This document shows positions 816-26,111 of a stretch of 64,000 bases of DNA, piece after piece. The number at the start of each line of letters is the position of its first letter. Within the stretch, counting starts at the first letter, position 1. Below the pieces are notes generated by a model, which saw only the letters and a list, made by a program, of their open reading frames with translations, was not told where the DNA came from and made no database searches. The position numbers and the translations under genes were made by a program. This stretch comes from the human T2T-CHM13v2.0 reference genome, Homo sapiens: the NCBI RefSeq assembly GCF_009914755.1, contig NC_060930.1, one strand, 5' to 3'.

Positions 816-889
816 TAATTTTTAATGGGGATGATGAATAAAATATTATTTTTTGAGGAGGGAATAAAAGAAAATAAGTATATCTATAA

Positions 890-928
890 ATACTACACTT
901 GATCTTAGCCAAAAGGCCGAGAAGCGAT
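890..928 (-). pseudogene. 3'-truncated U2 snRNA pseudogene (U2 nt 1-39)
   Basis: Reverse complement is ATCGCTTCTCGGCCTTTTGGCTAAGATCAAGTGTAGTAT; 19-bp direct repeats at 876-894 and 929-947 (1 mismatch). Confidence 0.95.
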
Positions 929-17330: not shown

Positions 17331-20300
17331 GTGTATAATCTACTTAGCTTTGTACTTCCTGAAATGGATACACTAAAATCAATGAGACCAATATTTTCTA
17401 TTAATAGTGCATTTTTGGTTTTTGTAGCACACACTTTACTTCATACAATGGAATTCATAATGTATCCTACCTACACACCTAATATTAAAAATTAACCAAG
17501 ATAATTCCCTAACTCTAATATAAAAAGTATAAGAGACCACTAATTTACAAGACCACTATTTCTATACAAAAAATACTAAGGAATGACTGAACTAGAAGAT
17601 ACATTGAAGTGGTTAGCTCTTTGCACTCATACACAGAATTACCATGGGTTTGGTAGCCATAAATAAAGACTGATAATAGTCATTTCCTATTAGACACTCA
17701 AGTAGGATGATGTATTTTTTTCAATATAGTTAAAAAATTCTAAGAAATTTCTGAATGAAAAATATTTATTGACTTAACATAAAAAATTTATTCCTGATAT
17801 AGTCAATGATTATTAAAATTGTGTAAAAATATTTCATGCCAATATGTGACATGAAATTCAGATCTAGGCTTAGATATTCATATATAGGTTTTATACACAC
17901 ATTAACATATGCTGTGACTTTTAGAAATTGTGCAATCTGTGAAAAACGTTTGCTTTGCCTGAACTGTTCTGTGCATTGAAAGATTTATAACATTCATCAT
18001 TCACTACCCATATCCTAAAATTAAACTGTTCCAGTCAATTATTCTGAATATTGACAATGACTCTAGAAGTTCCCAAGATGCCTCTAGAAGACAAAATACT
18101 CTCCCTGAAAATTACTGAGCTGAAATAAATTTCTCCAATTTACAAAAGCACTCATCACTTTTCACCCAACCATGTACTAGTACGTCTAGCATTTTGTCAT
18201 AATAATTAATAAATTCAAATAAATTGTAATATATATGTGTACATTGATATTGAGTACTAAGAGAAATGGCTATCAGATTGAAAGCTTTTCAGTGAGTACA
18301 TCAATTTTGCTAAAATATCAATTTTGATGAAAATTATAGTAACCTATAAATGTTACTGATATCTTGAAAATATGTAAATCTAAAGAAATTTTCTTTGAGA
18401 AATCAAATTGGACTAAAATAATTTATGAATGTATTGCTAACTGTATTAAATATATAAATTTTAAAATATAAATGGGAAACAAGTGAATAATATGATAGAA
18501 AGTAAAAAGCAGAAGCCTACTAGGTAAAATTCTATAAGTTAAAAATATGATCTAATGTGAAAATATTATAATTATTAGTTTTTTATCATTTATGTTTTTA
18601 ATGAAAAAAATTCTAGGAATAGAAAAACTAAAATTATTCCTTTACACATTATCCTGAATCCTAAAGTTATGACCCAAATACCATATAAACTGTGGATGCT
18701 CAATTACTGTTGCATTAATATGGTCAACAAATGCATTTTAAACTTGAGCAAGCTATGCTTAAGACAAAGGTCACCTTTTAAAGATTCTGCATAAAAGGCT
18801 GCATGAAACTCCAAGTCTTAGAAAATAATTTGAAAAGCAATGCTAAAAGGTTATACCTATAAAAACGATTTAAATATAAATTTAAATAAAAATCTGGCTT
18901 AGGTAGTATAAAACTATATAACATGCACAAGTCATTTTATTGTTTGAGATATGAAATTGAAGTATGAAAAGTCATAAAACCTGAAGCTATAATACGGTCA
19001 AACTTTAATTTTAAATATATAACGTATGTATTTGGGAAAAATATATGAGAGATAATTGTGTATAGATGAGTTAAATTTCAACCCATATGAAACTTGAAAC
19101 TTTATTATTCAAAAATGCTTCATTTAATGAAGTTTGTTATAATAATTTTGGTATGTGTATGGGTAATACAATGATATGTACTCTAGAATTGCTTAAATGA
19201 ATGATTTCTATATCATTTTACTATAAGGATTTAAGAACCAAGATTATTTGGTTTTCTAGAGCATAATAAAGAGAGAAAATATATCAGTGTATGTAAGTGC
19301 CTTAGACAAAAAGATTTAGACACTTGATCTAGTGGTTTCAAGACTGGCCCCAACCCAAAAATACATTCAATATGACACTTTCATATGCAGTTCAATATCT
19401 TTTTTGCTTTAAAGGTAAAAATATACCCACATAAAACTTTTACTTGAAGGCAGAAAAGTTTGCATAGTATAGCCAAAATAAATAAATAAACCTAAAACCA
19501 ACTATTCAACTTGTTAATAAAATCACGGACATCACGACAGAAATTACAATAGTCTTAGAATAAATAATTATTAGACTTTTGGGATCAGAAATAATTTAAG
19601 AAAATCCTGGTCAAATTATACTATACTTTTGTGCCATATTCACATAAAGCTCTATTTTTACAAGCCTCCTGACTCTACAGAAATAGTTTTTGAAACTTCA
19701 CCTGATTTTCTTATGGACTTTTAGATTCTACACTTTGAAACAGAACTCTTACTTATAACTGAAAATTATGTTTTGGATATATTTAACATTACACAGAAAA
19801 TGTGAATCTCCTAAAATAGCCTGTAAAGGAAACAGGTTAAATTTAAAACTTCCAGAAAGAAAGCCAGAAGACACACTGCTATAATCAAGCAACTTGTATG
19901 TTCAGAAAGTGAAAAAAATAATTACTTTAGTACTTTAAAAATGTGTTCACTTTCTAAATGAAACAGAAGAACCATGAGATGTGTTCTGAAGAGTGTATAA
20001 TCTTACCTATGTATAGTACATTACCTGGGGACAGGTATCATGTCTCATTGTCATAACATTTTGAAAAATATCTTCCAGTTAGAGGAGATTCAATAAATAA
20101 TAAATGTATGAATGAATATATTTCATTCTGTTATGATATTTCTGGTAGCAAGTAGGGATTGGTGACTTAGACATAAATTTGAGGCTTCAAAAACAGGTGG
20201 GAGTCATGAACACTTCACAGTCTGGGCATGGTATTAAGAAATTAACATCCCAGACTTAGCAAATCTTTCCTGGTCTTAAGTAACAATATGGCTGGTATGA

Positions 20301-21043
20301 TTTAGTCTTTGGCTCATTAAACATTTTATAAACCCCCAGAAAAATTTTTTGAAGATTTCAGGGCAAAAAAATGTGGTAATATGCAGACCTGTTTGAAATA
20401 CATCATTTATATAATGAATTTTAATCTGCACCCATTTAAAATACACTTTAAAAGAAAATGTTTATACGCTATTCATTAACTTTGTGTCTGTTAACATCAT
20501 CAACATTATTAGTGTCTATCATTATAATACTATCATTATTTTGCCTTATAAATTGAGTTTAATTGAAAAATTTCTCCATCCCGAAATCACAAAGATATTT
20601 TTCTACATTTCTTTCATTTATATCGTCATTTTACCTTAAACTTTTAGATCCCTATACACATTTAGAGTCTACTTCTATATAAGGTATAAGGTTGTAATCC
20701 AGTTTCATTTAAGGTCTTATTATGAGCCATTTCCTCAATACCATTTACTAAAGAACCCTGTATGTTCAAATGAGATTATAGCCAAATTTCTCATATATTG
20801 AGTTCCCGTATATACTCGGGTTGTTGTCAGAGCTCTCTGTTGACCCATTATTATTTTTTTTCCTTTAAAGGCACCCATATGTGTTATGTAGTCTGTCATG
20901 TCATATGGTTCATCAGATCCCACCCCATTAGTCTTCCTTTTCAAAGATGACTTCATAATTTAGAAAATATTATTCATAAATATATATAACATGATAATTA
21001 GTTTCTAAAATAACTTGCAATATTTTTACTATTGCATTAAATG

Positions 21044-21178
21044 TGTGAATTAATTTGGGAAGAATTAATATTTTAGCTAATTTAAGGCCTAATATTTAAC
21101 TCCATGCATTATATTTCCATTTATTCAGTGTATATATAATTTTCTCTTTTTCATTGAGCTTAGTGGTATGTAGAGGGT
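21044..21178 (+). repeat. Copy A of a 135-bp direct duplication (copy B at 22248-22382)
   Basis: 126/135 identical, no indels. Confidence 0.95.
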
Positions 21179-22152
21179 CTTTTTAATGGAGAATTAGAGC
21201 ATCTTTTTTTTAATTCTAAACATTTTGCATATCTTTTGACATTATAACAGGTGTTATCACACATATAATTTCTAGATATTGCAACTGATATAGAGAAACT
21301 TAATTTTATATAAAATACTTGTATCTGCAACATTTGTTGGGCTCCATTGTTAGTATTAATTATGAGACAATATCAAGAACTCATTAAAGTGTTGATAAAT
21401 TACAAAAATTTTGTAATTTATCCAAGATTCTCTGGATATCAAAAAATAATGGCAAACAAAAGAGAATCACAAAATCAGAAAAAAGGAAATAACATCACAA
21501 AACGAAGGATAATTTTCTTAGTAAATAAAAAAGCTTCTGAAAATCATTGTTTCATTAAACAAGTATTTGTTGAGCACTATTCTATGTGTCTTTTGTGGCT
21601 TACTACTTTTCCTTATCAAAATGTTTTCAATGTTTATTCGTATTGAAGCACATATCAGTAATTCATCTTTGTCTATTGCTGAATAACATTTCATTGTATG
21701 GATATAACAAATTTTATATATCCATTCATCAGTTGATGGTCATTTGGGTTGTTTCAACTTTTTGACTCTTTCGAACAAAACTGTAAACATTCACATATAA
21801 ATTTTTGTAAAGAACATATATTTTCAATTTTTTGAGTATATACTAGAAGTAGAATTGCTGGGTGTAAAGTGTTATCTCATTGTTTTGATTTAAAATTCCA
21901 GTCTTTCAGCCTTTCACCGTAAAGTATAATGTTAGTTATGTTTCTTCATTCTTCTTATTTTTTTTTAACTTCTCTTATCAGATTGTGGAAGTTCCCTTTT
22001 ATTCTTTATTTGTTGAGTGTTTGTTTCATAAAGTGTTGTGAGATTCTGTAATACAATTTTTTTCTCCATCTACATTATCATGCATTTTCTTCTTTATTTA
22101 TTCTATTGATACATTAAATTACATTAATTGATTTTAAGCCACTAAATCAAAC

Positions 22153-22246
22153 TTATATTCTTACGATAAATCCCACCTGGTCATGCTGTATAAACCTTTC
22201 TATATGTTGCTGAATTTGGTGTGGTATCACCGTGTTGAGGATTCTT
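22153..22246 (-). CDS. EYS: Alternative terminal EYS exon, coding part RILNTVIPHQIQQHIERFIQHDQVGFIVRI*, derived from L1 ORF2 (isoform of about 619 aa); 3' UTR end not determined
   Basis: Acceptor ttcttcccaaattaattcacag at 22247-48; 94 nt complete the phase-2 exon 11 and give 30 aa plus TAA; agrees with my recollection of an annotated short isoform. Confidence 0.8.
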
Positions 22247-22247
22247 C

Positions 22248-22382
22248 TGTGAATTAATTTGGGAAGAATTAATATTTTAGCTAACTTAAGGCCTAATATT
22301 TAAGTCTATGCATTATATTTCCATTTATTCAGAGTATATACAATTTTCTCATTTTCATTGATCTTAGTGGTATACAGAGGGT
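22248..22382 (+). repeat. Copy B of the 135-bp duplication, inserted inside an L1 ORF2 fragment
   Basis: L1 ORF2 homology stops at about 22247 and resumes near 22415. Confidence 0.93.
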
Positions 22383-24109
22383 TTATAGTGCTATATAGAG
22401 GGATTGAAAACATAGATTTGCCTATAGTTTTCTTGTGATTTGTCTGGTTGTGCTATTGTTGTAATATTGGCCTCATAAAATGAGTTGGGAAATGTTCTCT
22501 TCTCTTCTATTTTTGGAGGAGGTGGTGAATAACTACTCTTAATTTTGCTTTAAATATCTGTTACAATGTCTCAGTGAAGTCATCTAGGCATGAACATTTC
22601 ATAGTGTTAATTTTTGTTAGTTTGTTTAATTACTGATTCAATCTTTTTACTTGTTATAGGTTAGATTTCCTACTTCTTCTTGAATCAATTTCAGTAGTTG
22701 GTATTTTTCTATTTTATCGAAGTTAACTAATTTTTTTAATTTACAGTTGTTCATAGCATTTCTTTATAATTATTTTTCTTTCTGTAATTTCAGTAATATT
22801 TTATATCTTATTCCTGATTTTAGTATATTTGTTAATGTTTAAAACAAATGAAATTTTGTTTTTTGATATTCTTTATTGTTTATCTATATTTTATTTTATT
22901 AATTTTACTCTACATTTTATGATTTCCTTCTTTCTACTTATTTTATTTAGGTTTAGTTTCCTCTCTTATCCATTGTGTTGTGGAAGTTTAGGCTATTGAG
23001 GTATTTACAGCTATAAATTTTATTCGCAGCACTGCATCACCCACATCCCATGAGTTTTGGTATCCATTTTCAATAATCTCAAAGTCTTTTCTAATTTCTC
23101 TTGCAATTTCACTTTGATTCATTGTTTAATAAAGATTGTATTATTTAACTTCCATGTAATTGTAAATTTATCAAGTTACTTATTGATTTTGATGTTTAAT
23201 CTCATTCAATTTTGGTCAGATAATGTCCTTTTTATTATTTCAATTTTTTGAAATATATTACAGCTTGCTTTATAGCATAGCGTAGGATATGATCTATCTT
23301 GGAGAGTGTGCCATGTACATTTAAGAAGGTTATTCTGCTGTTGTTGGGTAATGTGTTTTATAGCTATCTACTATTTCTAGATGATTTATAGTGTTGTTTG
23401 AATCTCCTATATCTTAGTTGATTTATAGCCAAGTGTTATATCTGCTATTGAAAGTAGAATATTAGAGCCTCTAATTGTTATTGTTGAATTGGCTATTTCT
23501 CCCTTAAATTATTTTTTAGCTTCATTATTTTGAGGCTCTGTTGTTAGTTGTGTATATACATATATATATACACACACATATATGTTTGTAATCACTACCT
23601 TTTCTGATAGTTTGATTCTTTTATAATTATAAAATATCTTTCTTTTTCTCTACTACCTGTTTCATTTTTTCTCTTAAAATCTATTTTTTCCCTGATGTTA
23701 GTATAGGCACTCCAGTTTTCTTCTTGATGCAGTTTGAATGATATTTTTTTATTGCTTTACTTTCAGCTTATTTGTATCTTTGAATCTAAAGTGTCTTCCG
23801 TAAACCATATATATATATATACACACACGTATACATAAAGTGTATCTTCTATAGATCATATATAGTTGACTAAATCAGAAAACAGCCAGTCTAAACGTCT
23901 CTAAATTTTGACTGAATTTCTGAAATCACTTTATTTAAATATTTTTGATATATTTGAATTTATGCCTGCCATTTTACTTTTTGTTTTCCACATGTCTTAT
24001 ATCTCTTTTGTACCTGTATTTTTTTCATTGTAATTATTCTAATACTAGTTTCTTTTATACTAAGTAAATCTCTAGGGCAATATTTTATTTTATTGTATTT
24101 ATTTTCTCA

Positions 24110-24398
24110 TGATAGGGTCTCACTCTGTTGCCCAGGCTGGAGTGCAGTGGCACAATCATAGCTCATTGAAGCTTCTAACTCCTGGGCTCAAGTGATACTT
24201 CTTCCTCAGCCTCCCAAGTAGCTAGGGCTAGGAGTACAGGTGTGCACAACCACACCTGGCTGATTTTTTTAAGTTTTTTGTAGAGACAAATTATCACTAT
24301 GTTGCCCAGGCTGGTCTCAAACTCTTGGCCTCAAGCTATTCTCTTGCCCTGGCCTCCCAAAACACTGAGATTACAGGCTTAAGTCACTGTGCCAGACC
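24110..24398 (-). mobile_element. AluJ
   Basis: agggtctcactctgttgcccaggctgg...cctgggctcaagtgat. Confidence 0.93.
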
Positions 24399-24699
24399 CT
24401 GAGGGCAACATTTTAATTTTGTTAATGCTAATTTTACTAAAGCATATGAGTTTTTGTTTGTTTTGTTGTTGTTTTTTGTAGTTGCTTTGGAGCTAATCGT
24501 ACACATCTTAACTTAGCAGAATTTACCACAGATTTATGCTAACTTAATTCTACAATGACATAGAGAAGTTATTTCTATACAGATATATTCCTTCTTCCCT
24601 CCTTTTATTGTGCTAGAATTGTTATACATAACATGTATTATGTAACATAATATATAATAACTATATATGTATATGTAAGTGTTTGTTATGGAAATTCCA

Positions 24700-24759
24700 A
24701 TCATTTTAATCAACAAAAACATTGTTACCATGAAACAGTTCGATGACTATCAATTTAAT
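24700..24759 (-). terminator. Intronic polyadenylation signal (ATTAAA at 24759-24754) with downstream U/GU-rich element
   Basis: Minus strand reads ...ataATTAAAttgatagtcatcg...tggtaacaatgtttttgttg. Confidence 0.6.
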
Positions 24760-24789
24760 TATAACTTTTTGATATGTGATATTATCTGC

Positions 24790-24808
24790 TCAAATGATAC
24801 ATAAATAC
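24790..24808 (-). CDS. EYS: Exon-11 read-through extension (R)YLCII-stop, short EYS isoform of about 594 aa
   Basis: AG|G TAT TTA TGT ATC ATT TGA read directly; ATTAAA 30 nt downstream; length agrees with a short isoform I recall. Confidence 0.8.
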
Positions 24809-24975
24809 CTGGGTCTATTAATTTCATCTTTACAAACAGCTTCATGTTGACACTCATTTTCTTGATCATCAGTTGTATTTTCCAGATACATGTTGCCAGC
24901 CCATCTGAGAAAACATAGATACCGATATTCCTGACTGTCTTCTTCACTCAAACAACTGCATCCATTTGCACAAAT
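24809..24975 (-). CDS. EYS: EYS coding exon (probably exon 11), 167 nt: ICANGCSCLSEEDSQEYRYLCFLRWAGNMYLENTTDDQENECQHEAVCKDEINRP(R)
   Basis: Acceptor ttacttctttcgttgctatag, donor CAG|gtattt, phase 0 to 2, EGF-like NECQHEAVCKD motif. Confidence 0.96.
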
Positions 24976-25036
24976 CTATAGCAACGAAAGAAGTAAAAAT
25001 GTTATGAATTCCTATCACTTACTACAATATTACAAT

Positions 25037-26111
25037 TGTGACCTGAGAGATCACGATAGATGCCTCTCTGTCTACTAAGATGAAACCTAGGGTTAAGGAA
25101 ACAGAAGGTAACTATTGGACAAGGGTTCAAAGCTTGGCTGGCACAGCAATTCCCTAAATTTCTAGAGCTACAAGAAAAACCACACCCTTGCTAAACTCCG
25201 TAATAGGAGCTATCAGTCAAATTGTCATTTCATTTCTAACTCTGATTTACAACCAAGGCCACCATAACCCTTATCAGACAGAGAATCGCCTTACAAAACA
25301 CTTTTCTGATAAGCAATTGTAGGCCTCAAACCAGTTTCAGCCAGTTTATACAGACAGGACATAAACTGTCTTTGTGTCCTGTAGTTCACTTTTTTTATGT
25401 GAACTGCCAAATTCCACCTCATTTTAAAGCTAAAGCCCTGCTTCAAAGAGAACATGGGATGTATGTTACATACATGTTTACTCATTGAACATGTGCTTGC
25501 CTGTCCCCCATAAATATGTATTGCTTTCCCCACAAACTTGCTGAATATGTCTGACTCTATTTTGAACACAGACCTTATGAGGCACAAAAATCACCCTGCC
25601 CTTTACCACTTCTAGGAGAGCACCCTGGGTCCACATCAGAGATGAAGTTTTCCCAGTTATATTATTTTGCTCTGTTTCCTCAGCCAAATTTCATGTTGAA
25701 TTGCGATTCTGACTGTTGGAGGTGGGGCCTGATGGGAGATGATTAAATCATGGGGGCAGTTTCCCCCTTGCTGTTCTCCTGATACTGAGTGAGTTCTCCT
25801 GAGATCTGGTTGTGTAAAAGTATATAACACCTCTCCCTTTACTCTCTCTCCTGCTGCCATGTGAAGACCATGCTTGCTTCCCCTTCACTTTCTGCCATGA
25901 TTGTAAGTTTTCTCAGGCCTCCCAGCCATGCCTCCTGTAGAGCCTGTGGAACTGTGTGACAATTAAACCTCTTTTCTTTATAAATCACCGAGTCTCAGGT
26001 AGTTCTTCATAGCAGTGTGAGAATTGACTAATACACCCAGTTAGCGAACTGATATCACAAATAAACTCTTCTTTCTACTGTTTAGTCTTTTTGGTAGTCT
26101 TTTGGATGACA
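25037..26111 (+). mobile_element. MER39-like ERV1 solo LTR interrupted by an MST element
   Basis: TG...CA ends; tgtgacctgagaga...ctacaagaaaaaccacacccttgctaaactcc. Confidence 0.75.
25657..26035 (+). mobile_element. MSTA-like MaLR solo LTR with 5-bp TSD cccag
   Basis: ctgccatgattgtaagttt...gactaataca; cccag at 25652-56 and 26036-40. Confidence 0.9.

What the first reader, a model, noticed from the sequence alone, without database searches (positions are those of the whole stretch)
21044..22402. A local 135-bp duplication appears to have built the splice acceptor of the L1-derived EYS terminal exon
Seen: 22248-22382 is a 126/135 gap-free copy of 21044-21178 placed in the middle of an L1 ORF2 fragment, followed by a re-copy of its last 17 nt (22386-22402, 15/17). 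On the minus strand the inserted copy supplies all the intronic context (ttagctaaaatattaattcttcccaaattaattcacA). The acceptor AG straddles the junction: A at 22248 from the copy, G at 22247 outside it. The source copy reads ...ttcacac and has no AG. Inference: a templated-insertion accident created a 3' splice site in frame with exon 11, exonising L1 sequence in the sense orientation. About 7% divergence suggests a simian-era origin, so this isoform should be lineage-restricted. I know of no description of this origin, but cannot search.
Basis: partly seen in the sequence, partly recalled or inferred. Interest (0 to 1): 0.85.

Follow-up and report, generated by a model that had tools for sequence, protein, structure and literature searches.

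The report
Copied L1 piece supplies EYS acceptor
A 155-base block copied from 1.2 kb away sits inside an old L1 fragment and provides the end of the intron in front of the last exon of the short EYS isoform 2, a neat but fairly ordinary case of a repeat-derived exon.

Summary
21044-21178 and 22248-22382 match 126/135 without gaps. A 15/17 re-copy lies at 22386-22402. These are the only two copies found in the T2T genome.

Natural L1 copies show that 22247/8-22402 is an insertion into an L1 ORF2 fragment that lost about 8 nt there. The exon 19101-22246 is the RefSeq last exon of EYS isoform 2. Its 30-residue tail is read in the old ORF2 frame, residues 541-567 of human ORF2p. It was reported amplified by RT-PCR in retina, testis and Y79 cells (PMC5112921).

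New here: the source copy is itself in situ L1 ORF2 sequence, about residues 780-824. The acceptor CAG falls exactly where 7 of 7 L1 relatives carry CAG, in the Tyr-Arg codons. So the block moved a weak latent L1 acceptor. It did not supply anonymous sequence.

Whether the G came with the copy, and copy A lost it later, or arose at the junction is about even. The age is loose, roughly 7-67 My. Lineage restriction could not be tested because no primate DNA was reachable. Interest is modest.

The parts
22247..22382 (-). Copy B, the inserted copy of 21043-21178. It forms the last 136 nt of the intron before the isoform-2 terminal exon. Identity with copy A is certain from 22248. Base 22247 is the disputed G of the AG.
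   Evidence: 126/135; absent from natural L1 copies; 22247 matches 7 of 7 L1 relatives of the source
22383..22385 (-). 3-nt spacer between copy B and the re-copy. It matches the source's continuation at 1 of 3 positions.
22386..22402 (-). 17-nt re-copy (stutter) of 22365-22381, 15/17. It is also 15/17 to the same unit in copy A.
22247..22248 (-). Acceptor AG of the terminal exon of NM_001142801.2. It is homologous to the CAG spanning the Tyr-Arg codons (about residues 823-824 of human ORF2p) in L1 relatives.
22261..22272 (-). Short pyrimidine run ttcttccc (positions -22 to -15) and a TTAAT branch-point candidate (A at 22269, position -23). Both lie inside copy B.
   Evidence: read. The motif assignment is by eye and not tested.
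21043..21178 (-). Copy A, the source. It is in situ in a second L1 ORF2 fragment and lies in the 3' UTR of the same exon. It reads AC where copy B reads AG.
20980..21360 (-). Second L1 ORF2 fragment (L1-Y) that holds copy A. It is not colinear with the fragment that hosts copy B.
   Evidence: 6 of 8 relatives colinear across it; site lies 816-823 nt from the host site in 5 of 6 natural copies; a relative's piece matches ORF2p 779-840, E 4.7e-24
21958..22246 (-). Host L1 ORF2 fragment (L1-X), the part downstream of the insertion. Its first 94 nt are the coding part of the exon.
   Evidence: (tail residues 1-27 match ORF2p 541-567, E 4e-5)
22403..22933 (-). Host L1 ORF2 fragment (L1-X), the part upstream of the insertion. 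It is intronic.
   Evidence: (matches ORF2p 499-536, E 0.14, weak)
21584..21861 (-). 3' part of L1-X. It is separated from 21958-22246 by a large internal deletion.
19101..22246 (-). Terminal exon of EYS isoform 2 (NM_001142801.2). The CDS is 22153-22246, and AATAAA lies at 19106-19101.
24809..24975 (-). EYS exon 11. Its donor (GT at 24808-24807) joins to 22246 in isoform 2. Isoform 3 (NM_198283.2) reads through the donor.

Best explanation
One DNA repair or replication accident copied about 136 nt from an L1 ORF2 fragment 1.2 kb away. The copy was pasted in the same orientation into a different, non-homologous part of another L1 ORF2 fragment.

The insertion removed about 8 nt of the host. 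It added a 3-nt filler and a 17-nt re-copy. That pattern fits serial template switching.

The copied stretch is the L1 coding sequence for about residues 780-824 of ORF2p. On the sense strand this stretch carries a weak latent 3' splice site: a short pyrimidine run, then CAG across the Tyr-Arg codons.

After the event this motif sat directly in front of host L1 sequence. It now serves as the acceptor of an alternative terminal exon of EYS. The exon encodes 30 residues in the old ORF2 frame and ends at an AATAAA 3.1 kb downstream.

What is shown: the insertion, its direction, its L1 origin, the position of the AG, and the use of the exon. What is inferred: the repair mechanism, that the insertion was needed for splicing, and the age.

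Whether the G of the AG was copied or arose at the junction is open.
For: - Repeat and stutter.
- Only 2 copies found in the genome.
- Insertion relative to natural L1 copies: 5 of 5 lack 148 columns. Among the 25 relatives, 5 have an 8-nt gap between the flank alignments.
- Copy A is in situ: homology in 6 of 8 relatives runs across both of its edges. The two sites lie 816-823 nt apart inside 5 of 6 natural L1 copies.
- ORF2p mapping.
- 7 of 7 relatives have AG at the source-homologous site, with PWM scores from -0.57 to 4.03. The EYS site scores 0.82.
- At the host-homologous site the best AG in relatives scores lower: median -2.90, with 1 of 19 reaching 0.80.
- The host relatives have the needed base in only 2 of 21 copies and the dinucleotide in 0 of 21.
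- There is no poly(A) and no target-site duplication at the block, only a small deletion.
- Exon use: BestRefSeq and RT-PCR in retina, testis and Y79 (PMC5112921, passages seen).
Against: - No primate sequence or RNA-seq could be examined. Necessity of the insertion and its lineage restriction are untested.
- The PWM is crude. It uses 296 acceptors from 20 gene-dense chr6 stretches. It rates the site weak: 17th percentile, and 12% of decoy AGs score as high. The gain over host-site relatives is only about 3.7 bits.
- Many host-site relatives already carry an AG 4 nt upstream. The host may therefore have had a weak acceptor of its own before the event.
- Microhomology at the junctions is 0-1 nt, so the repair pathway cannot be named.
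- Copy A today has no AG. A carried-in AG therefore needs a later change in copy A. My rough odds between the two readings are 0.4-2 to 1.
Confidence: 0.65

Rival explanations
1. One reading: the AG was born at the junction. The A is the first base of the copy. The G is a host or untemplated base, or a later point change in copy B. The source never had an AG at the time of copying.
For: Today copy A reads AC, and A/B identity starts at 22248. The right junction shows filler bases, so untemplated or miscopied bases did occur in this event. The branch before the duplication is long, so an earlier change in the source is not unlikely.
Against: 7 of 7 L1 relatives of the source have the AG at exactly this position. 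The junction would therefore have restored the family's own state by chance. Host-site relatives carry the needed base in only 2 of 21 copies.
Confidence: 0.3
2. The insertion was not needed. The host L1 already had a usable acceptor a few bases upstream, or the exon is defined mainly by the downstream poly(A) signals. Copy B is a bystander.
For: Most host-site relatives have an AG 4 nt upstream of the homologous exon start. The present site is weak. The exon is A-rich, with 7 AATAAA and 5 ATTAAA.
Against: The upstream AG stretch of the host is among the roughly 8 nt deleted here. In relatives it scores lower: median -2.90 against 0.82, with 1 of 19 as high. The AG in use lies at the very edge of the block.
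Confidence: 0.15
3. The two copies are not a local duplication. They would instead be two members of a repeat family, the product of gene conversion between L1 fragments, or copy B as the source of copy A.
For: Both copies are L1 ORF2-derived.
Against: They are 93% alike, while L1 relatives are 66-80% alike at the host fragment (most 68-75%) and about 68-77% at the source fragment. The genome holds only these two at BLAST level. The host site is a non-homologous part of ORF2, about residues 537-540 against 780-824, which rules out conversion. Relatives are colinear through copy A and interrupted at copy B.
Confidence: 0.02

Closest known systems
Exonisation of L1 sequence into host protein isoforms (for example 'Birth of protein-coding exons by ancient domestication of LINE-1', PMC12129022; start of abstract and passages seen)
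   Same: L1 ORF-derived sequence, sense to the host gene, is spliced in and translated as part of a host protein.
   Different: That paper has 0 mentions of EYS. Here only a 30-residue tail of an alternative terminal exon is L1-derived. The acceptor comes from a second L1 fragment moved by a local copy event.
Latent splice sites on the L1 sense strand and premature polyadenylation in L1 (Belancio et al. 2006; Perepelitsa-Belancio and Deininger 2003; both recalled, not read here; the first is cited in papers listed)
   Same: A weak acceptor-like motif inside ORF2 coding sequence, followed by A-rich L1 sequence with poly(A) signals.
   Different: I could not check whether this particular ORF2 position (Tyr-Arg, about 823-824) is on the published lists. 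Here the motif works after being moved out of its element.
Templated insertions and serial template switching (FoSTeS/MMBIR; polymerase-theta end joining; recalled, not read here)
   Same: A nearby template in cis, direct orientation, a small deletion at the target, filler bases, and a short re-copy.
   Different: 136 nt is long for the polymerase-theta type. Microhomology is 0-1 nt. The pathway cannot be assigned from one old event.
Alu exonisation by small changes that complete a latent 3' splice site (Lev-Maor et al. 2003; recalled, not read here)
   Same: A repeat carries a near-acceptor that becomes an exon border.
   Different: Here the latent site was relocated, not completed by a point change, unless the junction-born reading is right.

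Membership tests
Transposable-element exonisation (L1-derived alternative terminal exon) | Exon sequence is derived from the element | tested here: met
   Tail residues 1-27 match human ORF2p 541-567, E 4e-5. DNA homology to dispersed L1 copies.
Transposable-element exonisation (L1-derived alternative terminal exon) | Splice site lies in element-derived sequence | tested here: met
   The acceptor region is a copy of L1 ORF2 sequence. 7 of 7 relatives carry the same CAG.
Transposable-element exonisation (L1-derived alternative terminal exon) | Transcript evidence for the junction | tested here: met
   BestRefSeq NM_001142801.2. RT-PCR with cloning in retina, testis and Y79 (PMC5112921, passages). 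The primer table is in a supplement that I could not see.
Transposable-element exonisation (L1-derived alternative terminal exon) | Lineage-restricted origin | not testable with these tools
   No primate DNA or RNA data were reachable. Divergence alone gives about 7-67 My.
Templated insertion by template switching | Inserted sequence matches a nearby template in cis | tested here: met
   126/135 identity, 1204 nt away, same orientation. No other copy found in the genome.
Templated insertion by template switching | No retrotransposition hallmarks (poly(A), target-site duplication) | tested here: met
   The flanks show a deletion of about 8 nt of host L1 and no duplication or A-tail.
Templated insertion by template switching | Second switch or re-copy | tested here: met
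   17-nt re-copy at 15/17. Shuffles gave a mean of 0.005 such events.
Templated insertion by template switching | Microhomology at the junctions | tested here: inconclusive
   At most one shared T at 22246. None is evident at 22402/22403.
Gene conversion between L1 paralogues | Donor and acceptor tracts are homologous | tested here: not met
   The host site maps to about ORF2p 537-540 and the copied tract to about 780-824.
Tandem or segmental duplication | Copies adjacent, or the intervening sequence duplicated too | tested here: not met
   Only 135-136 nt is repeated. The flanks are unrelated.

The most novel reading that the evidence does not exclude
The 155-nt templated insertion was the single necessary event that created EYS isoform 2 in an ancestor of apes, or of apes and Old World monkeys. 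It would have done so by moving a latent L1 ORF2 acceptor in front of another L1 ORF2 fragment. The isoform, with a C-terminus taken from the L1 reverse-transcriptase fingers region, would then be a lineage-restricted retina and testis protein. This would be a documented case of exon birth by template switching between two dead copies of one element.
Probability: 0.25. Interest if true: 0.5.

Novelty: new member of a known kind. Interest (0 to 1): 0.33.

Why it matters
EYS is a major retinitis pigmentosa gene, and its short isoforms have no known role. Two facts bear on how much weight to give isoform 2. Its tail is L1 ORF2 sequence, and its acceptor came from a young local copy event. Together they suggest a recent, weakly spliced and possibly primate-only product. 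That affects variant interpretation and the choice of animal model.

As evolution, it is a clean small example of how repair accidents can move latent splice signals between repeat fragments. It opens no long-standing question.

Tried and rejected
Cross-species test. None of the tools holds primate DNA. The protein word search sees only proteins 0.55-1.75 times the query length. The longest single coding exon of the short isoform gives 249 aa, so it cannot reach 594-619-aa proteins. A spliced protein would be a joined sequence, which may not be typed, so I made no protein search.

Repeat masking in the annotation file was of no use. The L1 fragments here are not among the masked stretches.

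A phmmer search of the copy-A peptide against PDB found no ORF2p hit. I used a better-kept natural relative instead.

Relative L037 showed the copy-A state at 21043. It aligned weakly (score 49-54) and at an offset of 614 instead of about 820 nt. I dropped it from the 7-of-7 count. Fourteen more of the 22 loci gave low-scoring, wrong-strand or no alignments over the site and were not used.

In some searches, 4 of 25 host-site relatives were skipped because their alignment stopped before 22240.

The first PWM score for the copy-A site (9.11) was an artefact of the fixed AG columns. It was replaced, where the AG columns are excluded (2.37).

Polarising the 9 differences gave about 6 derived in B, 1 in A and 2 unclear. 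This is not significant (p 0.125). It hints at error-prone copying, which would make the event younger than 7% suggests.

Literature. Seven searches and word finds in five papers gave no account of an L1 or duplication origin of this exon. PMC5112921 has none of the words LINE-1, retrotransposon, transposable or repetitive. PMC8127272 has no 'retrotransposon'. None of the 12 papers listed holds 'templated insertion'. Supplements were closed and may hold primer or junction details.

Full report
**Observation.** The repeat is as described. The repeat finder on 19000-25200 gives 21044-21178 and 22248-22382 as the largest direct repeat: 135 nt, 93%, spacing 1204. A script counts 126 of 135 matches, with 5 transitions, 4 transversions and no CpG in either copy. 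A search of the whole T2T genome with 22248-22402 returned 2 matches of 2 candidates, the block itself and copy A at E 1.9e-50. That search skips very common words, so diverged L1 relatives are not expected to show. The stutter 22386-22402 matches 22365-22381 at 15/17. In 22000-22800 there is one such near-repeat within 17-40 nt, against a mean of 0.005 in 200 shuffles.

**The block is an insertion into an L1 ORF2 fragment.** An 801-nt query across the block found dispersed copies matching either side. Hits ended at query 261-320 and restarted at 454 or later. Only copy A matched the middle. In an alignment with five natural copies, 5 of 5 lack 148 columns that the window has. In a table of 25 natural copies the host sequence typically runs on for about 8 nt between the two flanks. 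The target gap is 8 in L009, L016, L023, L026 and L029. The right flank resumes at 22403 in 6 of the 25. So the event removed about 8 nt and added 155-156 nt. There is no poly(A) and no target-site duplication.

Translation on the minus strand fixes the position in the element. The exon's tail matches human L1 ORF2p 541-567 (E 4e-5). The piece just upstream of the block matches ORF2p 499-536 (E 0.14, weak but colinear). Against one long natural copy the host fragment is colinear in four pieces: 21584-21861, 21975-22210, 22416-22733 and 22854-22933. A large internal deletion lies between the first two.

**The exon.** RefSeq NM_001142801.2 has 12 exons and a CDS of 1860 nt. It ends with exon 19101-22246, CDS 22153-22246, spliced from 24809. 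The phase is 2+1, and the tail is RILNTVIPHQIQQHIERFIQHDQVGFIVRI*, as in Table 1 of PMC5112921. That paper also reports RT-PCR and cloning of isoforms 2 and 3 from retina, testis and Y79, with isoform 3 the more abundant in retina (passages seen). The minus-strand AG is at 22248-22247. AATAAA sits at 19106-19101. Isoform 3 reads through the exon-11 donor. The tail is read in the old ORF2 frame. That is a one-in-three coincidence, since the other frames would give 21 or 5 codons.

**What the source is.** A search with 20700-21560 found three weak non-local matches that span the left edge of copy A (aligned). I then fetched, from 20 natural L1 copies, the stretch expected about 855 nt further along the element. 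That distance came from my recollection of ORF2. Eight of 22 loci examined gave credible alignments. In 6 of 8 the homology runs colinearly from about 20980 to 21330-21360, across both edges of copy A. In 5 of 6 natural copies the site homologous to 21043 lies 816-823 nt from the site homologous to 22243. The sixth, L037, lies at 614 and aligns weakly. A stop-free 64-residue piece of one relative covering the site matches human ORF2p 779-840 at E 4.7e-24. So copy A is in situ L1 ORF2 sequence, about residues 780-824, in a second fragment that is not colinear with the host fragment. Copy B is the derived copy. The two sites are non-homologous parts of ORF2, which excludes gene conversion.

**The AG.** On the + strand, copy A has G at 21043 and the window has C at 22247. 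All 7 reliable relatives of the source have C, giving minus-strand CAG across the Tyr and Arg codons. Host-site relatives have C at the gap-free analogue of 22247 in 2 of 21 copies, and the CT dinucleotide in 0 of 21. Two readings remain.

- (b) The source still had the CAG when it was copied. The copy then runs to 22247, and copy A changed afterwards (aga to aca).
- (a) The source had already changed. The G then arose at the junction from a host, untemplated or miscopied base, or by a later change.

Reading (b) needs one change on a short branch. Reading (a) needs one change on a long branch plus a coincidence of about 0.1-0.25. My rough odds for (b) against (a) are 0.4 to 2. This is inference, not a computed test, and I leave it open. 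Either way the acceptor sits exactly where the L1 family carries a latent one.

**Strength of the site.** I built a simple position matrix (30 nt upstream, 3 downstream) from 296 annotated AG acceptors and 32,281 other AGs in 20 gene-dense chr6 stretches.

| Site | Score | Note |
|---|---|---|
| EYS isoform-2 acceptor | 0.8 | 17th percentile of real sites; 12% of decoys score as high |
| Three other EYS acceptors in the window | 7.6, 9.5, 10.3 | |
| Source-homologous site, L1 relatives | -0.57 to 4.03 | 7 of 7 have AG |
| Host-homologous site, best AG within 30 nt | median -2.90 | 19 relatives with an AG of 21 usable; 1 of 19 reaches 0.80 |

So the block brought a weak acceptor that is still somewhat better than what host-type sequence usually offers. 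The matrix is crude, and its training set is richer in G+C than this region.

**Age.** K2P distance is 0.070, and the exact 95% interval of the raw difference is 0.031-0.123. At 1.0-2.2e-9 per site per year this gives 16-35 My, with limits of 7-67 My. The rates are from general knowledge. Polarised by the relatives, about 6 of the 9 differences are derived in B, 1 in A and 2 are unclear. The asymmetry is not significant (p 0.125). If some are copying errors, the event is younger. 'Simian-era' is possible but not pinned.

**Mechanism.** The event has a nearby template in cis, direct orientation, a small target deletion, a 3-nt filler, a 17-nt re-copy 21 nt downstream, and 0-1 nt of microhomology. 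These fit serial template switching during break repair or replication restart. The pathway is inferred. The stutter shares one derived base with B and one older base with A. This fits its being made in the same event.

**Literature.** I found no account of an L1 or duplication origin for this exon.

- NM_001142801 occurs in one paper in the library.
- That paper has none of the words LINE-1, retrotransposon, transposable or repetitive.
- The 2021 EYS review has no 'retrotransposon'.
- The 2025 paper on L1-derived coding exons has 0 mentions of EYS.
- 'EYS' with 'exonization' gave 10 papers, none on this by title.
- Supplements were closed.

**Verdict.** The thing is a known isoform whose origin is a tidy, apparently undescribed example of L1 exonisation helped by a local templated insertion. 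Function and lineage restriction are untested. Interest is modest.

Noticed in passing
window 22156-22299, minus strand: A 48-codon stop-free frame runs from inside copy B across the intron-exon border into the tail (ILGLKLAKILILPKLIHR|RILNT...). The ORF2 frame of the copied piece is therefore in phase with the ORF2 frame of the host piece. This is probably chance.
   Followed up: partly
window 859-928, minus strand: The annotated pseudogene LOC124901559 matches Rfam U2 spliceosomal RNA (RF00004): 52 bits against a gathering score of 46, E 1.8e-09. At 70 nt it is a short U2-like fragment.
   Followed up: partly
window 19101-22246, minus strand: The 3146-nt terminal exon is 72% A+T. It holds 7 AATAAA and 5 ATTAAA, several of them within 250 nt of the stop codon. 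Shorter 3' ends of isoform 2 seem possible. The annotated end coincides with the last A of an AATAAA.
   Followed up: no
window 21861-21975: The host L1 fragment has a large internal deletion here relative to a natural copy on chr6. The second L1 fragment (20980-21360) carries sequence from within the missing span but lies on the far side of the 3' piece. Whether these are two elements or one rearranged element was not resolved.
   Followed up: partly
window 24074-24383: A masked repeat in the intron between exon 11 and the terminal exon matches many dispersed copies at about 70% and has an internal direct repeat. It looks Alu-like by eye.
   Followed up: no
window 23549-23570 and 23807-23833: Two TA/CA-rich simple stretches 237-251 nt apart appear both as a direct repeat (93%) and as an inverted repeat (90-95%).
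   Followed up: no
window 22244-22382 against 21040-21178: Differences between the copies seem to fall mostly on copy B: about 6 derived in B against 1 in A, judged from L1 relatives. This hints at error-prone synthesis when the copy was made. It is not significant (p 0.125).
   Followed up: partly
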